Below are positions 1,057 through 9,739 of a stretch of DNA of 10,789 nt, piece after piece (positions within the stretch are counted from its first letter, which is position 1; every line of letters starts with the position of its first letter). Origin of the DNA: a virus. Taxonomy: Duplodnaviria > Heunggongvirae > Uroviricota > Caudoviricetes. The notes beneath the pieces were generated by a model. That model had not been told where the DNA came from. It did not search any database and worked only from the letters and a program-made list of their open reading frames with translations. The DNA is taken from the IMG/VR virus record IMGVR_UViG_2917849834_000008, positions 1 through 10,789 of that record. The stretch is one strand, 5' to 3'. The position numbers and the translations under genes are program-made.

Positions 1057-2090
1057 TGAGCAAGAAAAAAGGGAAAACACCGCAACCTGCGACAAAAACA
1101 ATGACCGCCAGCGCCCCGAAAATGGAGGCATTCACCTTTGGTGAGCCGGTGCCGGTACTCGACCGCCGTGACATTCTGGATTACGTCGAGTGCATCAGTA
1201 ACGGCAGATGGTATGAGCCACCGGTCAGCTTTACCGGTCTGGCAAAAAGCCTGCGTGCTGCCGTGCATCACAGCTCACCGATTTACGTCAAACGCAATAT
1301 TCTGGCTTCAACGTTTATCCCGCACCCGTGGCTTTCCCAGCAGGATTTCAGCCGCTTTGTGCTGGATTTTCTGGTGTTCGGTAATGCGTTTCTGGAAAAG
1401 CGTTACAGCACCACCGGTAAGGTCATCAGACTGGAAACCTCACCGGCAAAATATACCCGCCGTGGTGTGGAAGAGGATGTTTACTGGTGGGTGCCGTCCT
1501 TCAACGAGCCGACAGCCTTCGCGCCCGGCTCCGTGTTTCACCTGCTGGAGCCGGATATTAATCAGGAGCTGTACGGCCTGCCGGAATATCTCAGCGCCCT
1601 TAACTCTGCCTGGCTGAATGAGTCGGCCACGTTGTTCCGCCGAAAGTATTACGAAAACGGCGCTCATGCCGGATATATCATGTATATCACCGACGCATTG
1701 CAGGATCGCGATTACATTGATTCACTTCGCGAAAACATGGCCAGGTCGAAAGGCCGCAATAACTTTAATAATCTGTTTCTCTATGCCCCACAGGGAAAGC
1801 CAGACGGCATCAAAATTATCCCGCTCAGTGAAGTGGCGACAAAGGACGATTTTTTTAATATCAAAAAATCCAGCGCCGCTGACCTGCTGGACGCGCACCG
1901 CATCCCCTTTCAGTTGATGGGCGGCAAGCCGGAGAACGTCGGGTCGCTGGGTGATATTGAGAAAGTGGCTAAGGTCTTTGTCCGCAATGAGCTTATCCCG
2001 TTACAGGACAGGATTCGCGAGATAAATGGTTGGCTCGGTCAGGAGGTCATCCGCTTTAAAAACTACTCACTGGACACTGACAACGGCTGA
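1056..2090 (+). CDS. Q: Portal (capsid vertex) protein, P2 gpQ-like
   Basis: 344 aa ORF, the size I recall for P2 gpQ. Start ATG overlaps the P stop by 1 nt. Followed by a strong terminator and, about 170 bp downstream, the cos site, as in P2. Typical high-GC enterobacterial coding composition. Confidence 0.85.
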   Translation: MSKKKGKTPQPATKTMTASAPKMEAFTFGEPVPVLDRRDILDYVECISNGRWYEPPVSFTGLAKSLRAAVHHSSPIYVKRNILASTFIPHPWLSQQDFSRFVLDFLVFGNAFLEKRYSTTGKVIRLETSPAKYTRRGVEEDVYWWVPSFNEPTAFAPGSVFHLLEPDINQELYGLPEYLSALNSAWLNESATLFRRKYYENGAHAGYIMYITDALQDRDYIDSLRENMARSKGRNNFNNLFLYAPQGKPDGIKIIPLSEVATKDDFFNIKKSSAADLLDAHRIPFQLMGGKPENVGSLGDIEKVAKVFVRNELIPLQDRIREINGWLGQEVIRFKNYSLDTDNG

Positions 2091-2095
2091 ACATC

Positions 2096-2117
2096 GCCGC
2101 CTGCGGGCGGCTTTTTT
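2096..2117 (+). terminator. Rho-independent terminator downstream of Q
   Basis: Perfect 6-bp GC stem gccgcc (2096-2101) / ggcggc (2106-2111) with 4-nt loop tgcg, followed immediately by TTTTTT (2112-2117), 6 nt after the Q stop codon. Confidence 0.7.
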
Positions 2118-2259
2118 ACACCCCGCCATCACGCCCTCACACGCTCACCACAGCACAAAACAGCCCGCAGACACACCAACGCCCCGGCGAACAATCTAAA
2201 CGCCATCACGACGTGCTCAGACGCTGAAAAAATAAAATCAGCACCACCGCCAGCGCGCA

Positions 2260-2278
2260 GTGCTTTCCCCGCCTCGCC
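2260..2278. other. cos: Phage cohesive-end site (cos), P2-type 19-nt sequence, present in joined form
   Basis: gtgctttccccgcctcgcc at 2260-2278 is the exact reverse complement of GGCGAGGCGGGGAAAGCAC, which I recall as the 19-nt P2 cohesive end. It sits between the Q 3' end and the old/tin-equivalent region, as expected for a prophage or circular form. Confidence 0.6.
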
Positions 2279-2565
2279 CGCCCGCTTCGTGAGGCGGTTT
2301 TAATGCACTTGCATGAATGGCCTAAAGTACGCCAGTTCTGACACTGCAAAGTTAGAAAATGCCTGACAGGCACATGCAAAATGATGCATCAAATGAATTC
2401 ATACTGAAATAACCCCCCAACCACATAGCTAAGCATCCACATCTTTACATCTAACTCACTAAATTCTCTTGAATAAATCAAAAAGTTAGGTTAGATCTCT
2501 GTCGTTGAGGAAGGCAACCTCGAACACTTAAGGCTAAATATAAAAAGAATAAAAAGAGGGATAAA

Positions 2566-2853
2566 ATGAAATTAAAACTCAAAAACGTAACAAGCTATCA
2601 TAAAGAATATTTTACTGAGTTAGATTTATCCAAAAAAATAAACATATTGTATGGACAAAATGGTTGTGGAAAATCTACCATATCAAATTATTTTTACAAT
2701 CCTAAAGACACCGCCTATAAGGAATGTGTATGCGAACCCATCGATAATTATCGAACTCTAGTCTACAACTCAAAATATATAGAAGATAATTTTTATAATG
2801 CAAAAGAGCAAAAAGGTATATTTACCCTCAGTCAAAAAAAATGCAGAAATTGA
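2566..2853 (+). CDS. N-terminal fragment (Walker A / P-loop) of an AAA_13-like ABC/SMC-type ATPase, RloC-like; frame broken at an A8 tract
   Basis: Good SD (aagaggg, 2554-2560) 5 nt before ATG 2566. Translation contains the P-loop GQNGCGKST. Only 95 aa, then stop at 2851-2853; the downstream ORF in the -1 frame carries the rest of the ATPase motifs. Very AT-rich, unlike the flanking phage genes. Confidence 0.6.
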   Translation: MKLKLKNVTSYHKEYFTELDLSKKINILYGQNGCGKSTISNYFYNPKDTAYKECVCEPIDNYRTLVYNSKYIEDNFYNAKEQKGIFTLSQKKCRN

Positions 2854-4775
2854 AAAAAATACTATCTGAAAAAGAAGAGCTAAACAAATCACTAGCACAT
2901 CAGCATAAAGAAAAAAAAGAATTTATCGAAAAACTTCATGAAGCGAAAAACAAAAAAGAGCAAGAGTGCATAAATTCCATATGGAATAAGACCAAAGACA
3001 TAAGAAGTTCAGAATTAAAACAATTAATGAAAGGTCAAATAGGAAGCAAAGCCACTTTCTATTACCATCTAAAAAAGTATACTCCACAAACTGATATTGA
3101 TATAAAATCATTAATACAATCTTATAGCAAACTTCTCGAGTTTAAAGGAAAAGAAATACCTCTGATAACTCCTTATAAAGGATATGTTTTATCTGAAGAA
3201 ACTCAAAAAACATTATCCACACCAATTATTGACTCTAGCAACAGCTATTTATCTGAAGCAATAAAAGAGCTACAAAATATTGATTGGATTAAACAAGGCA
3301 AAGAGCAATATTTAAATGGAGAAATTTGTCCATTTTGCCAAAGGGACACAATAGATGATAATTTTATTAAAGCCATTGAATCTATCTTTGATGAAACATA
3401 CTCAAGAAAAGTAGATCAAATACAACAAATAAAACTATCTTATGATAATGCCATTAAAAATCATCATGAAGAAATAAAGAGTAACATTTTATCATGTGAG
3501 GTGATAAACCAAGACGAAAAAGATAAAAGTCTTTCATATGTTAAGGCGTTAGAAACTATTGCAGAAAAAAACATTAAATTATTGGATAATAAAATAGAAA
3601 ATCCATCTATAAGCATTGTGCTGGAGTTTGAAAAGTCGATAGAGGAAAAACTATTAGAAGATATAGAACAATACAACAATAAAATTAACGAGTTCAATGA
3701 CAAAGTAAAAAGATTTAATAATAGCGAAATAGATATTCGCGAAAAGATGTGGGCAGCAATCAGAGACTTATGTAGCGCGGAATTTGAAATACTATCAGAC
3801 TGCGAAAGAAACTTTCAAGAAAAATATGAAAACGCTGCATCCTTCATGCAGGAAATAAAAAGAAAAGAAGAGATCAACACAAATGAAATCAATGAACTAA
3901 GAAATAAAACATCAAGTGTAGATGCAACAATAGATGCAATAAACTCACGACTTAAATTTCTTGGCATCTCTGGTTTTAGCATTGATAAACACGCCGAACT
4001 CAAAGATAAGTATATAATATCCCGCGATGGAAACAATAGAAAACAAGATGTATATCGGTCATTAAGCGAAGGTGAAAAAACATTAATAACGTTTCTATAT
4101 TTTTTAGAATGTTGCAAGGGTAAAACAAATGAAAATGATAATGATATGCGTGATAAACTCATAGTTATAGATGATCCTATATCAAGTCTATCTCAAAACT
4201 ATGTTTTCGACATAGCATCCATGATCCATCATGACATAATTGAAAAAGGCATTTCATCAAAAATAATAATCCTCACCCATAATCTTTATTTCTTCCATGA
4301 GTTAATAAAACTCGCCTCTAAAAAAGGAATAAACTTTAAACGGGACTACTTTCTTGGCAGAATAAACAAAAATGAATTTAGCACCATTAGTGCTATAGAT
4401 AAAAAAAGTGTGCAAAATGAATACCAATCCCTTTGGCAAGTATTAAAAGATGCAAAAGAGAAAAAAATCAACAAAATAATAATCCCAAATATTATGAGAA
4501 ATATACTTGAGTATTACTTTGCATTTGTTCATAGAACTGACGCATTAGAGGAAAAGCTTACTGAATTAACAAATGATGAAAATAACAGCCATTTCCGTGC
4601 CTTTTACAGATATATAAACAGAGGCTCTCACTCCGACGCAATAAATATAACAGACATGGGCGATATTGAACCTGAGAAATACTTAGAACTCTTGCACAAA
4701 ATATTCAGAATGACTGGTGATGAGAAACATTACTTAACAATGATGGGTGAAGAAGAGGTAAATGTTACCGCTTAG
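2841..4775 (+). CDS. Main part of RloC-like AAA_13 ATPase: coiled coil with CxxC zinc hook, ABC signature-like and Walker B motifs, C-terminal putative anticodon-nuclease-like domain
   Basis: 644 aa ORF. Lys/Glu-rich predicted coiled-coil region (aa ~1-400) with CPFC at aa 163-166 (nt 3327-3338). LSEGEK (aa 408-413), DKLIVIDDP (aa 438-446) and ILTHN (aa 477-481) match ABC-type signature / Walker B / H-loop. C-terminal ~150 aa contain MRNILEYYFAFVHR...SHFRAFYRY. This frame is open from 2799 and overlaps the upstream ORF across the A8 tract 2834-2841. Confidence 0.7.
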   Translation: MQKLKKILSEKEELNKSLAHQHKEKKEFIEKLHEAKNKKEQECINSIWNKTKDIRSSELKQLMKGQIGSKATFYYHLKKYTPQTDIDIKSLIQSYSKLLEFKGKEIPLITPYKGYVLSEETQKTLSTPIIDSSNSYLSEAIKELQNIDWIKQGKEQYLNGEICPFCQRDTIDDNFIKAIESIFDETYSRKVDQIQQIKLSYDNAIKNHHEEIKSNILSCEVINQDEKDKSLSYVKALETIAEKNIKLLDNKIENPSISIVLEFEKSIEEKLLEDIEQYNNKINEFNDKVKRFNNSEIDIREKMWAAIRDLCSAEFEILSDCERNFQEKYENAASFMQEIKRKEEINTNEINELRNKTSSVDATIDAINSRLKFLGISGFSIDKHAELKDKYIISRDGNNRKQDVYRSLSEGEKTLITFLYFLECCKGKTNENDNDMRDKLIVIDDPISSLSQNYVFDIASMIHHDIIEKGISSKIIILTHNLYFFHELIKLASKKGINFKRDYFLGRINKNEFSTISAIDKKSVQNEYQSLWQVLKDAKEKKINKIIIPNIMRNILEYYFAFVHRTDALEEKLTELTNDENNSHFRAFYRYINRGSHSDAINITDMGDIEPEKYLELLHKIFRMTGDEKHYLTMMGEEEVNVTA

Positions 4776-5002: not shown

Positions 5003-7291
5003 TTACTTAAAAAGATCAAAGCCACTAAAAAACTGCTTCCACTCACCACTTATTGGATATATAAACTTTCGTCCGTCAAACTTTACCGTCGCGCCACGCG
5101 CCAGCGCCTCAAGCTCCCATCGCTGCGGCCTGATACCGTTCTGAGCAAGGTCAACGCGGATACGGGTAATTTGCATTCTTTCCGACCGGGTCAGTCTGGC
5201 CGATGGTGCAATTTCATGTGGTTTTAACGGGCTTCCGTTTCTTTGCTGACGGTTTGGCGTTCTCAGGTCGTGTTTTAATGCGCCCCTGAGCGCCCTCACG
5301 ACCTCCGGTTCACTCCATTCAATAACACCGTCATCAACCAGATTAAGCACTGCTGCGGCGTGCTCAGAAGGTGTGGGAGCCGATAACGAAGTATTACCGC
5401 CGGTGAGCTTTCCACAGTTATTGACAGGACTCCGAGGCGCGGCGATGCCGCTTTTTAAAGTCAAAGGCTCAACGACCGGAACTTTCGGCACAATGCGCCA
5501 GTCCGTCGTTCTGGTGATATGAATATGACGCGCGCCGAGATGCGGCGCGTAAATGCCGACCACTCTCTCGACTTCTTCCTCGTACTCGTTAACGTCATCC
5601 GACGTGCTACGGGCAACCCTGACAGTCTGACAATCGCGCGGGACATTTGCCCCGCCCTGCGCGCTGATATACAACGCAAAATCACCACTGTCTGCGGCGG
5701 CGCGTGCAGCCTCGACGCGTTCGTCAAACTCATCAGCAATGCTGACGCCGCGAGGCAATTTGCGTAGTTCACGGTAAGCCCCCATTGTCGGCAGACCAAC
5801 CGTTTTAAATTGCGGAATGCGCCACGTTGACGCCCATGCGGTAACAGCCGCAGCAGTATCTTTCAGCGGCCTGCCGGTATCGTTATCGAGCTGACCATCC
5901 AGTGCATAGCCATCGATGTTTTTTGAGATGTATTTCGCGATATATCCCGCAGCACCGCCCCGGTTAAGGTGTTTTGCCTGAAAACGGTTTCGCGCGGCTC
6001 CTCTTTCGTCGCCATCCTCTTTGAGCGCATAGCGACGCATGATTTCGATAATCTGGTTACGCTGGCGTGGATTACAAAAAAGCATCATATGCCAGTGCGG
6101 CGTTCCGTCGTGGTGTGGCTCGACGACACGCAAACCGTAGACCTGTAAATCATTATCCTTGAATGCCGTGCGCATCAGGCTCCAGATATGGCAGAGATAA
6201 CGCTGCGCATCCTTTGGATTAAATGCCTCATCGTTCCAGCCGTGATTTAGCTGGACGGTTTTACTTTCGCCTTTTCCGACCTGACGTGTCGGGTGATACT
6301 TTGACGGCGTGGTCAGCGTGATAAACATCCCCACATCACCCTCTGCGGCGGCGTAACGCTCAATACCGGCAATGGTGTTCATCAGCTCCATCCGGCGAAT
6401 TTCAGGATTAGAAATACTGCCCATCACCTTACTGATAAGGTCGATGCGCTCGCCGGTTTCCCTGTTTTCAAGGTCACACGATTTAAGAAATTCCAGATTT
6501 GCCTGGCGGCGCGCACGCACATCACGAATGGCGTGTTTACTGGCATAAGGAGAACGGTCTTTATTGACCTCCCCGACAGCTATCAGTAACGCTTCATGCC
6601 AGCGCATACGCTGGCCTTTAAGCTGATGAGTCCACCACTCATCGTTAAACAGACGGGCAATTGCAGAATATGCCTGCCTCGTGGTCATCTGTCCTTTACG
6701 GTATTTTTTCCAGTAGAGAGGGGAAATATTGAAAGCACGTGCAGCGCCAGCAACATGACCATAGAGGTGAGCCTGCGCCTCATCCGTAAACAGCGATTCT
6801 TTTTCGCCATGCGCATCCCCCCAGGCATCGCTGAGTTCCTCATACATCATGAAAAGCTGCGATGAGATACGGGCAGCAAACTTTTTCAGCTCCTTGTCAT
6901 TCATTCCCGGCAGGCGCGCATAGTGGTCACGCTCTGCCAGAAACAGTAACGACGCGTCGGTGTTCATTTCATGGCGCTGATTCACACGCTCAATGCGCGG
7001 CCATAAACGACGCTGAAAAGTGGATGTGAGGAAATAAAACCCGTGCACCGGGCTTTTATTGCGCCGGATGTAGTCATAGCGTGAAGTAAACAGCGAACGC
7101 AAAAAGTAAGGCAGGCGGTTAATCGTGGATAAAACACCTTGCACCTGACGCATCTCGTCACGTGTAAGGGGTCTTTCGCGCCCGACGGCCTCGCGTGGCG
7201 CGTTCCATGCATAAGCACCGGTAAACGTCTTACCGGTGCCTGCGGCAAATGCTGACGGAGGGACAAAACGCCCGGAGGCTTTAACGGCCAT
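5003..7291 (-). CDS. A: Replication initiation protein, P2 gpA-like rolling-circle initiator
   Basis: Large minus-strand ORF (track 5003..7333, 776 aa with a TTG start at 7333). The first ATG at 7289-7291 starts MAVKASGRF, which I recall as the P2 gpA N-terminus, and gives ~762 aa. Contains the HxH-like segment PHHDGTPHWHMMLF. Located between the cargo and the B/cox region as in P2. Confidence 0.85.
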   Translation of the reverse strand: MAVKASGRFVPPSAFAAGTGKTFTGAYAWNAPREAVGRERPLTRDEMRQVQGVLSTINRLPYFLRSLFTSRYDYIRRNKSPVHGFYFLTSTFQRRLWPRIERVNQRHEMNTDASLLFLAERDHYARLPGMNDKELKKFAARISSQLFMMYEELSDAWGDAHGEKESLFTDEAQAHLYGHVAGAARAFNISPLYWKKYRKGQMTTRQAYSAIARLFNDEWWTHQLKGQRMRWHEALLIAVGEVNKDRSPYASKHAIRDVRARRQANLEFLKSCDLENRETGERIDLISKVMGSISNPEIRRMELMNTIAGIERYAAAEGDVGMFITLTTPSKYHPTRQVGKGESKTVQLNHGWNDEAFNPKDAQRYLCHIWSLMRTAFKDNDLQVYGLRVVEPHHDGTPHWHMMLFCNPRQRNQIIEIMRRYALKEDGDERGAARNRFQAKHLNRGGAAGYIAKYISKNIDGYALDGQLDNDTGRPLKDTAAAVTAWASTWRIPQFKTVGLPTMGAYRELRKLPRGVSIADEFDERVEAARAAADSGDFALYISAQGGANVPRDCQTVRVARSTSDDVNEYEEEVERVVGIYAPHLGARHIHITRTTDWRIVPKVPVVEPLTLKSGIAAPRSPVNNCGKLTGGNTSLSAPTPSEHAAAVLNLVDDGVIEWSEPEVVRALRGALKHDLRTPNRQQRNGSPLKPHEIAPSARLTRSERMQITRIRVDLAQNGIRPQRWELEALARGATVKFDGRKFIYPISGEWKQFFSGFDLFK
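5421..5440 (-). other. ori: Putative origin of replication (gpA nick site) inside the A coding region
   Basis: ttgacaggactccgaggcgc on the + strand is the reverse complement of GCGCCTCGGAGTCCTGTCAA, which I recall as the P2 ori nick region. The P2 ori is known to lie within gene A. The match is exact but the reference sequence is from memory. Confidence 0.45.
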
Positions 7292-7556
7292 GTGAGCCAA
7301 AAGCCTCTGAACAACGCTTGCTGAGTTGCTCAACCTGCGCGTTTAAATCAGCAAAAGATTTTGCGCTTCCGGTCAGAATATCGTGATGCATCATGCCGGA
7401 AACGAGCTGGCTTAATTTCGGGTAATAACCAACCACCGCCAGCCATTCCTGACCGGCGTTTTTACCGCTTTCCGCTCTCTTTTTCTCGTGGAGAATAAAC
7501 TGAAAGCTGTCACTGGTAACGACATAACGTTCGCCAATGTCAATACGAATACTCAT
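7281..7556 (-). CDS. Hypothetical protein; by position corresponds to the small ORFs between B and A in P2 (orf83-like)
   Basis: 91 aa ORF with ATG start; its stop overlaps the A start region and its start overlaps the upstream ORF stop by 4 nt (ATGA). Composition matches neighbouring phage genes. Confidence 0.55.
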   Translation of the reverse strand: MSIRIDIGERYVVTSDSFQFILHEKKRAESGKNAGQEWLAVVGYYPKLSQLVSGMMHHDILTGSAKSFADLNAQVEQLSKRCSEAFGSHGR

Positions 7557-9445: not shown

Positions 9446-9739
9446 ATGAAATTAAGCGAAAAGATTAAGGCCTTGCGTGAGGCGGAAGGGCTAAGCCAAT
9501 CAAAATTCTGTGAAATCATAGAGTTACCGCTAAGCACACTTAAAAAATATGAAGGAGGAAACTTTGAACCCGGTGGCACAGCTTTGCTAAAAATCACTAT
9601 GCATCCCACATTCCAAAAATATGCTCTATGGCTTATGACAGATAAAACCGCGCCGGACGCAGGACAAATCGCACCGGCTCTCGCGCACATTGGGCCAGAG
9701 TCAACAGAGTCCAACCACTCCGCGAAAAGGATTGGCTAA
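9446..9739 (+). CDS. C: Immunity repressor, P2 C-like
   Basis: 97 aa ORF (P2 C is about 99 aa), divergent from cox and directly upstream of int. N-terminal HTH-like segment (LSQSKFCEIIELPLSTLKKYE) and C-terminal GQIAPALAHIGPE, which I recall as conserved in P2-family C repressors. Confidence 0.75.
   Translation: MKLSEKIKALREAEGLSQSKFCEIIELPLSTLKKYEGGNFEPGGTALLKITMHPTFQKYALWLMTDKTAPDAGQIAPALAHIGPESTESNHSAKRIG

What the first reader, a model, noticed from the sequence alone, without database searches (positions are those of the whole stretch)
4308..4775. C-terminal effector-like domain with a PrrC-like R-x3-E ... H pattern
After the H-loop, the last ~150 aa contain MRNILEYYFAFVHR (Arg codon 4497-4499, Glu 4509-4511), followed 27 residues after the Glu by SHFRAFYRY. 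The PrrC anticodon-nuclease catalytic triad, as I recall it, is Arg-x3-Glu followed by a His about 30 residues later, in a domain of similar size C-terminal to the NTPase. The similarity in spacing and aromatic context is suggestive but is pattern matching from memory, not an alignment.
Basis: inference. Interest (0 to 1): 0.5.

Follow-up and report, generated by a model that had tools for sequence, protein, structure and literature searches.

The report
RloC-type anticodon nuclease domain, frameshifted gene

Summary
The sequence is there as described. The bare pattern R-x3-E…H is not informative: it appears in 36% of shuffles of the domain.

The gene (2566-4775) is AT-rich cargo between the portal and gpA genes of a P2-like prophage, which is the old/tin defence hotspot. 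It encodes a Rad50-like ABC ATPase with a coiled-coil insert, an invariant CPFCQ hook motif and a C-terminal all-helical domain.

- **Family.** It is 58% identical to E. coli APEC O1 YP_852004, which Davidov & Kaufmann (2008) list as an RloC orthologue and Anantharaman et al. (2013) use as the prophage ABC-HEPN prototype APECO1_4465. It matches PADLOC PDC-S06 at E = 1e-251.
- **Alignment to PrrC.** A full-length profile-profile alignment to 29 PrrC sequences gives 93% probability (E = 3e-7). It pairs R645/E649 with PrrC R320/E324.
- **The histidine.** The conserved histidine is H689 in RYINRGSHSD (codon 4629-4631, 40 residues after the Glu), which pairs with PrrC H356. Across 259 homologues R is kept in 259, E in 256 and H689 in 259; the H676 column varies.

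This copy carries two +1 A-run insertions that split the ORF. Verdict: a known kind, low novelty, interpretation partly right.

The parts
2566..2853 (+). ORF1: N-terminal 95-aa fragment of the ABC ATPase head (Walker A YGQNGCGKST at 2650-2679). It ends at TGA 2851-2853 because of the first frameshift.
   Evidence: (AAA_13 profile positions 7-91)
2834..2859 (+). Two +1 adenine insertions relative to the intact allele: A8 at 2834-2841 (A7 in the intact allele) and A7 at 2853-2859 (A6 in the intact allele). Together they shift the frame by +2 and split the gene.
   Evidence: alignment to L001 5166-7373, WP_028132552.1, 735 aa
2841..4775 (+). ORF2: 644 aa covering the rest of the RloC-like protein (coiled coil, hook, ABC signature, Walker B, H-loop, C-terminal nuclease domain).
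   Evidence: AAA_13 E = 1.8e-82, profile 94-712/713; for the joined 736-aa protein (PDC-S06 E = 1.3e-251)
3327..3341 (+). CPFCQ: CxxC zinc-hook-like motif in the middle of the helical insert.
   Evidence: Invariant in 30 homologues. It lies in a low-confidence loop between long helices in the AF2 model. A CXXC motif is an RloC screening criterion (PMC2610378 supplement).
4062..4193 (+). ABC signature LSEGEK (4062-4079) and Walker B/D-loop LIVIDDPISSLS (4158-4193).
   Evidence: aligned to PrrC KISKGEES / FIDDPVSSLD
4272..4283 (+). H-loop / linchpin His (LTHN).
   Evidence: aligns to PrrC TTHS (H251)
4308..4775 (+). C-terminal all-alpha domain: the RloC/PrrC-type (HEPN-like) anticodon-nuclease domain. 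This is the finding's region.
4497..4511 (+). R-N-I-L-E. Arg (4497-4499) and Glu (4509-4511) are the equivalents of PrrC R320/E324 and GkaRloC R692/E696.
   Evidence: R in 259/259 and E in 256/259 homologues; aligned to PrrC LLRNLYE
4590..4592 (+). It is not conserved and is not the catalytic-His equivalent.
   Evidence: Column holds D/G/N/K/E/S in 259 homologues; Asp in the APEC O1 and CFSAN051542 homologues
4608..4637 (+). RYINRGSHSD, an R-x6-H (HEPN-type) motif. Arg 4608-4610 aligns with PrrC R349; Ser-His (His codon 4629-4631) aligns with PrrC S355-H356 and corresponds to GkaRloC H737.
   Evidence: R in 257/259, S in 254/259 and H in 259/259 homologues; aligned to PrrC SRIINFTSHS

Best explanation
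The region encodes the effector domain of an RloC-family anticodon nuclease. This is a single-gene abortive-infection / phage-exclusion module carried as cargo in the cos-proximal defence hotspot (between gpA and portal gpQ) of a P2-like prophage.

**Shown here**
- The protein has a Rad50/SMC-like ABC ATPase head split by a long helical insert that carries an invariant CPFCQ motif.
- It ends in an all-helical domain whose invariant residues R645, E649, R682 and S688-H689 (736 numbering) align with PrrC R320, E324, R349 and S355-H356.
- These residues fit the published RloC motif R-x3-E-x36-52-(S)H.

**Inferred from work on G. kaustophilus and A. baylyi RloC**
- The nuclease is held silent by an internal switch made of the hook and the DNA-dependent ATPase.
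- DNA ends or breaks that appear during phage attack, together with ATP hydrolysis, switch it on.
- It then cuts tRNA anticodon loops in a metal-independent reaction, possibly excising the wobble nucleotide. Glu would act as general base, His as general acid and Arg would stabilise the transition state.
- Translation stops and the infection aborts.

**In this assembly** the gene is interrupted by two +1 A-run insertions. As written it cannot make the full-length protein. This is either a strain-specific pseudogene or a pair of homopolymer sequencing errors.
For: **Context**
- The gene lies between the portal gene and the gpA replication endonuclease, at 28-30% GC against 50-58% GC in the flanks.
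- The same position holds the gene in three other E. coli prophages.
- This locus is the P2 old/tin defence hotspot (PMC9122126).

**Family assignment**
- Pfam AAA_13 matches over the full length.
- PADLOC PDC-S06 matches at E = 1.3e-251 and the PrrC model at E = 3.4e-15.
- PDC-S06 and DefenseFinder 'RloC' call the same proteins in another data set (PMC11811056 supplement).
- The protein is 58% identical over its full length to APEC O1 WP_000423308.1, 738 aa. I take this to be YP_852004 because it has the same size and the same flanking genes; I did not check the accession directly.
- YP_852004 is RloC orthologue no. 51 in Davidov & Kaufmann 2008, noted as flanked by 'Phage replication initiation, Capsid'. 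It is also the APECO1_4465 prophage ABC-HEPN prototype of Anantharaman 2013.

**Alignment to PrrC**
- hhalign of the family against 29 PrrC sequences gives 93% probability, E = 3.4e-7. The alignment is colinear and the R/E/R/H columns are in register.
- The PrrC set includes a 396-aa Enterobacter PrrC with EcoPrrC numbering.
- The C-domain-only comparison gives P = 0.009 in the same register.

**Conservation**
- R 259/259, E 256/259, H 259/259, and the preceding Ser 254/259.
- CPFCQ and all ABC motifs are invariant.

**Structure**
- The C-domain model is all-alpha, pLDDT 82.

**Gene neighbourhood of distant members**
- They are stand-alone genes in ICE and defence-island contexts with no hsd genes adjacent.
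Against: - No member of this P2-hotspot clade has been tested biochemically or in phage assays in the literature I could search. Nuclease activity, tRNA substrate and trigger are all extrapolated from RloC proteins whose sequences I could not obtain for a direct alignment.
- The C-domain alone does not reach any PrrC HMM. Its profile-profile score against the PrrC C-domain is only marginal (E = 0.29 and 0.009).
[quoted passage not shown] Membership of RloC in the strict sense therefore depends on whose definition is used.
- The gene is frameshifted in this window.
Confidence: 0.8

Rival explanations
1. It is a canonical PrrC: a restriction-linked tRNA-Lys anticodon nuclease silenced by a type Ic R-M enzyme and triggered by an anti-restriction peptide. 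This is what the reader's title implies.
For: The PADLOC PrrC HMM hits residues 435-717 at E = 3.4e-15. The triad columns align.
Against: - The protein has about 735 aa against 396 aa for PrrC, and carries a ~380-aa coiled-coil/CxxC insert that PrrC lacks.
- No hsd genes flank it; it sits between P2 gpA and portal.
- It has no KYGDSNKSFSY/LARP motif.
- The C-domain alone does not hit the PrrC HMM.
- The Glu-to-His spacing is x39 against x31 in PrrC.
Confidence: 0.02
2. The domain is a PrrC/RloC-related HEPN-like RNase whose target is not the tRNA anticodon loop (for example mRNA, rRNA or another tRNA site), or it is activated by a trigger other than DNA breaks.
For: - The clade is small and distinct: only 520 cluster representatives at E <= 1e-3 among 1.84 billion.
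- Anantharaman 2013 lists it apart from the RloC-like and PrrC-like families.
- It has extra invariant residues with no PrrC counterpart: R686, D691, N694 and a C-terminal His in the EKHY segment.
- Substrate-recognition residues of PrrC are absent.
Against: The catalytic residues, domain order, hook motif and Glu-to-His spacing all match RloC, whose characterised members are anticodon nucleases (PMC2610378, PMC3458546, PMC3874168). Nothing positive points to another substrate.
Confidence: 0.13
3. One reading: R645, E649 and H676 (SHFRAF) form the active site.
For: H676 lies 27 residues after the Glu, close to the PrrC spacing of 32.
Against: - The H676 column is variable (D 44, G 42, N 32, K 26, E 25, S 24 of 259), and it is Asp in the E. 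coli homologues at 58-62% identity.
- All alignments place PrrC H356 on H689.
Confidence: 0.02
4. In this strain the feature is a dead gene. The two frameshifts are real, and the nuclease domain is made only, if at all, as part of a 644-aa fragment that lacks Walker A. That fragment would be inactive or deregulated.
For: - The two +1 insertions are in the deposited assembly.
- The exact 644-aa product is on record from a single contig, while intact 735-aa alleles occur on hundreds of contigs.
Against: Both changes are single-base expansions of A7 and A6 runs only 19 nt apart, which is the typical signature of homopolymer sequencing or assembly error. The other 17 differences from the intact allele are substitutions, and the rest of the ORF is intact. 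No other gene in the window is frameshifted.
Confidence: 0.45

Closest known systems
RloC (Geobacillus kaustophilus GkaRloC, Acinetobacter baylyi AbaRloC; Davidov & Kaufmann 2008, Klaiman et al. 2012, 2013)
   Same: - Single polypeptide with a Rad50-like ABC ATPase head split by a coiled-coil insert that carries a CxxC hook.
- C-terminal domain with R-x3-E-x36-52-(S)H. Here the spacing is x39; in GkaRloC (R692/E696/H737) it is x40.
- Not linked to hsd genes and laterally mobile.
- A 58% identical E. coli prophage protein is in the original list of RloC orthologues.
   Different: - It is somewhat shorter than the characterised enzymes (735 aa against 804 for GkaRloC and 826 for AbaRloC).
- It belongs to a compact enterobacterial/vibrio clade found in P2 hotspots and other mobile islands.
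- No biochemical data exist for this clade.
- I could not align it directly to GkaRloC because the sequence was not obtainable with these tools.
APECO1_4465 group of prophage ABC-HEPN proteins (Anantharaman et al. 2013, Biol Direct 8:15)
   Same: The same protein family and the same locus: a P2-like prophage, between gpA and portal. The window's protein is 58% identical to the prototype.
   Different: None in kind. This is a different allele, and it is frameshifted in this assembly.
PrrC (E. coli EcoPrrC anticodon nuclease)
   Same: ABC ATPase followed by a C-terminal ACNase domain. R320/E324/R349/S355-H356 align with R645/E649/R682/S688-H689. Both act in phage exclusion.
   Different: - PrrC has 396 aa and no coiled-coil/hook insert.
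- It is always embedded in a type Ic hsd locus that silences it, and is activated by T4 Stp.
- It has the LARP tRNA-Lys recognition motif.
- Its Glu-to-His spacing is x31.
- The C-domains are too diverged for an HMM hit on their own.
P2 Old (and PARIS AriA/AriB, Gabija GajA): ABC-ATPase-coupled nucleases
   Same: Old occupies the same P2 hotspot. All are ABC ATPase sensors coupled to a nuclease effector and act in abortive or exclusion defence.
   Different: The effector in these systems is a Toprim nuclease, not a PrrC/RloC-type HEPN-like RNase, and they have no zinc-hook motif.

Membership tests
RloC (criteria of Davidov & Kaufmann 2008: ABC ATPase + CXXC + ACNase triad motifs) | [quoted passage not shown] | tested here: met
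   GQNGCGKST, LSEGEK, LIVIDDPISSLS and LTHN are present and invariant in 30 homologues. They align to the PrrC motifs. In this window Walker A lies on a separate ORF because of the frameshifts.
RloC | Coiled-coil insert with a central CxxC (zinc-hook) motif splitting the ATPase head (Rad50-like) | tested here: met
RloC | C-proximal Arg-X3-Glu-X36-52-His, with Ser often preceding His | tested here: met
   R645-x3-E649-x39-S688-H689. R is kept in 259/259, E in 256/259, S in 254/259 and H in 259/259 homologues. The motif definition comes from PMC2610378.
RloC | Homology to a listed RloC orthologue or recognition by RloC-type HMMs | tested here: met
   58% identity over the full length to the APEC O1 738-aa protein, which I take to be YP_852004, Table S1 no. 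51. PADLOC PDC-S06 hits at E = 1.3e-251, and PDC-S06 and DefenseFinder RloC call the same proteins.
RloC | Direct sequence alignment to a biochemically characterised RloC (GkaRloC YP_146738 or AbaRloC YP_044948) | not tested
   The sequences could not be retrieved.
RloC | Anticodon nuclease activity with wobble-nucleotide excision; activation by DNA ends plus ATP hydrolysis; hyperactivation by hook mutations | not testable with these tools
   These are biochemical properties of GkaRloC and AbaRloC (PMC2610378, PMC3458546, PMC3874168).
PrrC | ~400-aa protein: ABC NTPase without a coiled-coil insert, plus a C-terminal ACNase domain | tested here: not met
   735 aa with a ~380-aa helical insert, against 396 aa for PrrC.
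PrrC | Embedded in a type Ic hsd (EcoprrI-like) R-M locus | tested here: not met
   The flanking genes are P2 portal and gpA. There are no hsd genes in the window or in three related E. coli loci.
PrrC | Catalytic triad R320-E324-H356 | tested here: met
   The columns align in hhalign (93% probability, E = 3.4e-7). HMMER aligns R and E in register.
PrrC | tRNA-Lys recognition stretch 284-294 (KYGDSNKSFSY) | tested here: not met
   The motif is absent. The segment aligned to it is unrelated (STISAIDKKSVQNEYQ).
PrrC | C-domain recognised by a PrrC profile on its own | tested here: not met
   None of the 18 C-domains hits the PADLOC PrrC model at E <= 10.
HEPN superfamily (Anantharaman et al. 2013) | R-x4-6-H motif | tested here: met
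   R682-YINRGS-H689 is R-x6-H, with both residues (near-)invariant. It aligns with PrrC R349-x6-H356.
HEPN superfamily | All-alpha helical-bundle HEPN fold | tested here: inconclusive

The most novel reading that the evidence does not exclude
The P2-hotspot (APECO1_4465) clade may not be a plain RloC. It could be a distinct ABC-HEPN lineage with its own trigger, for example the linear or cos DNA ends of superinfecting phages sensed by the Rad50-like head. It could also have its own RNA target, given its extra invariant residues (R686, D691, N694 and a C-terminal His). The two expanded A-runs near the 5' end might then reflect slippage-prone tracts that switch expression of a toxic gene on and off, and not sequencing error.
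Probability: 0.08. Interest if true: 0.5.

Novelty: already known. Interest (0 to 1): 0.15.

Why it matters
The result mainly serves annotation. A gene that RefSeq calls only 'AAA family ATPase' in the P2 old/tin hotspot can be named an RloC-family anticodon nuclease, and its active-site residues (R, E, S-H) can be placed correctly for mutagenesis. Nobody appears to have tested this prophage-borne clade, so the intact allele would be a convenient E. coli-native model for RloC-type defence. The concept, the family and even this locus type were already described in 2008 and 2013.

Tried and rejected
- **PDB sequence searches.** phmmer with the protein found nothing. A family profile found only weak hits to Rad50/SMC N-termini. 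No PrrC or RloC structure turned up.
- **NCBIfam.** No meaningful hit.
- **C-domain against the PADLOC PrrC model.** No hit.
- **C-domain-only hhalign against PrrC.** Not significant with the shallow alignment (E = 0.29) and marginal with 259 sequences (P = 0.009). Only the full-length comparison is convincing.
- **Supplement of the HEPN paper.** It holds no alignments.
- **P0233, a 396-aa hit from the representative search.** I considered it a possible PrrC, but it is a short PDC-S06 form lacking the coiled coil.
- **Streptococcus phage Javan 'translation-disabling ACNase RloC'.** It aligns over the full length (27% identity), but it lacks the His and has Asp in place of the Glu, so it cannot serve as a reference.
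- **Truncated cluster members such as P0003.** These are fragments at contig ends, not recurrent frameshift variants.
- **Rfam.** No RNA family in the window.

Full report
**What is in the window.** The window is the left end of contig PDIA01000039.1 of assembly GCA_004745155.1. It is a P2-like prophage. The gene order is terminase (82-1056), portal gpQ (1056-2090), an AT-rich cargo gene (2566-4775, + strand), and then, on the minus strand, the gpA replication endonuclease (5003-7333) and the early genes. The repressor (9446-9739) and integrase (9779 to the end) follow. The cargo gene has 28-30% GC against 50-58% GC in the flanks. The interval between gpA and gpQ is the cos-proximal defence hotspot of P2-like phages, where P2 itself carries old and tin (PMC9122126).

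**Checking the observation.** The residues are at the stated coordinates: Arg at 4497-4499, Glu at 4509-4511, and His at 4590-4592, 27 residues after the Glu. As a pattern this means little. R-x3-E followed by a His 20-55 residues downstream appears in 36% of shuffles of the domain.

Compared with the intact 735-aa E. coli allele (WP_028132552.1; L001 5166-7373), the window has one extra A in each of two A-runs: A8 at 2834-2841 and A7 at 2853-2859. The other 17 differences are substitutions. The result is a 95-aa ORF carrying Walker A and a 644-aa ORF carrying everything else. The exact 644-aa product is on record from one contig only, while intact alleles are on hundreds of contigs. I cannot tell a real pseudogene from homopolymer sequencing error.

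**What the protein is.**
- Pfam AAA_13 covers the whole length, including the C-terminal domain.
- PADLOC gives PDC-S06 at E = 1.3e-251 over the full length and PrrC at E = 3.4e-15.
- In an independent data set the proteins PADLOC calls PDC-S06 are the ones DefenseFinder calls RloC (PMC11811056 supplement).
- In 30 homologues at 36-64% identity the ABC motifs, a CPFCQ motif in the middle of the helical insert, and a set of C-terminal residues are invariant.

**Link to the literature.** Davidov & Kaufmann (2008) defined RloC by three features: ABC ATPase motifs, a CXXC hook, and Arg-X3-Glu-X36-52-His with Ser often preceding the His (PMC2610378). Their Table S1 lists, as orthologue 51, E. coli APEC O1 YP_852004, 738 aa, flanked by 'Phage replication initiation, Capsid'.

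I located a matching gene in APEC O1: L043 45933-48149, WP_000423308.1, 738 aa, lying between gpA and portal. The identification with YP_852004 rests on size and flanking genes, not on a direct accession check. It is 58% identical to the window's protein end to end. Anantharaman et al. (2013) use the same protein, APECO1_4465, as the prototype of prophage-borne ABC-HEPN proteins in the PrrC/RloC/APECO1_4465 group (PMC3710099). The family, its nuclease-domain assignment and its prophage location are therefore already published.

- I recovered PrrC genes by scanning genomes for the published LARP peptide KYGDSNKSFSY (PMC1950546; scan).
- The Enterobacter sp. Bisph1 PrrC is 396 aa and has EcoPrrC numbering exactly: H251, D287, Y294, R320, E324, R349, S355-H356.
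- A PrrC HMM aligns the window's family colinearly from Walker B through the H-loop into the C-domain, placing IMRNILE on LLRNLYE.
- Full-length hhalign of the family against 29 PrrC sequences gives 93% probability, E = 3.4e-7. In 735 numbering it pairs R644/E648/R681/H688 with PrrC R320/E324/R349/H356.
- The C-domains alone are weakly similar: E = 0.29 with 18 sequences and P = 0.009 with 259, always in the same register. They do not hit the PADLOC PrrC model. This matches the original report that the triad had to be found by manual adjustment.

**Which histidine.** I aligned 259 C-domains, taken from a search of 1.84 billion cluster representatives that yielded 520 hits at E <= 1e-3, nearly all 715-800 aa long. 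In that alignment:
- R is conserved in 259/259 and E in 256/259.
- The His of GSHSD is conserved in 259/259 and the Ser before it in 254/259.
- The Arg seven residues before the His is conserved in 257/259.

The x39 spacing fits RloC (x36-52; GkaRloC x40) and not PrrC (x31). R682-x6-H689 also fits the HEPN R-x4-6-H motif.

**Mechanism.**
- Shown here: the architecture, the conserved residues and the genomic context.
- Inferred from GkaRloC and AbaRloC (PMC2610378, PMC3458546, PMC3874168): an internal switch, made of the hook and the DNA-dependent ATPase, keeps the nuclease silent. DNA breaks or ends together with ATP hydrolysis activate it. It then cleaves tRNA anticodon loops, excising the wobble nucleotide, which blocks translation.

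In a P2 prophage this would exclude competing phages, as old and tin do. More distant family members are stand-alone genes in ICE and defence-island neighbourhoods without hsd genes. That is consistent with a self-contained switch.

**Verdict.** The right family is RloC, the right histidine lies 13 residues further on, and the gene is interrupted in this assembly. Nothing here falls outside what was published in 2008 and 2013, so novelty and interest are low.

Noticed in passing
window 2834-2859: Two single-A expansions (A7 to A8 and A6 to A7) 19 nt apart split the gene into 95-aa and 644-aa ORFs. The first run, C-AAA-AAA-A, is also a -1 slippery heptamer in frame. This could be a pseudogene, a sequencing error or slippage; I could not decide which.
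   Followed up: partly
P0233 (396 aa; sequence): A natural PrrC-sized member of the same clade. It has Walker A, the ABC motifs and the same C-domain (AMRNIIEYFF ... RYIDRESHSD), but almost the whole coiled-coil/hook insert is missing. It scores as PDC-S06, not PrrC. It bears on the proposed evolution of RloC from a PrrC-like ancestor.
   Followed up: partly
L045 2417-4678 (Streptococcus phage Javan105, MK448667.1): A prophage protein annotated 'translation-disabling ACNase RloC' aligns over the full length (27% identity, CPYCQ hook). It has Asp in place of the Glu (RQILD) and no Ser-His at the catalytic position. It may be an inactive or differently wired relative.
   Followed up: partly
window 4719-4730 (DEKH) and 4620-4646: Residues invariant across the clade with no evident PrrC counterpart: a C-terminal His (258/259), R686, D691 and N694 (RGSHSDxxN). 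Their role is unknown.
   Followed up: no
window 2090-2565: The intergenic stretch between portal and the cargo gene holds two strong terminator-like hairpins (2096-2111, 2282-2297) and presumably the cos region. GC drops sharply from about 54% to 30% near 2400, marking the cargo boundary.
   Followed up: no
L047/L048 (Pectobacterium) and L049/L050 (Vibrio): Homologues at 38% identity sit as single genes in mobile islands. Neighbouring genes include a relaxase and genes with TIR_2, RelA_SpoT, GmrSD_C and DUF4365 domains, which are typical defence-island neighbours.
   Followed up: partly
E. coli complete genomes: At least three diverged alleles of this gene (about 58-62% protein identity to one another, about 71% at the DNA level where measured) occupy the same gpA-portal slot in P2-like prophages. 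75 of 5,426 complete E. coli genomes match at the DNA level. One strain (EC31) has the L002-type allele annotated as two CDSs.
   Followed up: partly
window 5003-7333 (-): The longest gpA ORF starts at a TTG and gives 776 aa. The called gene in the source assembly, and in relatives, is 762 aa (5003-7291). This is only a difference in start-codon choice.
   Followed up: no
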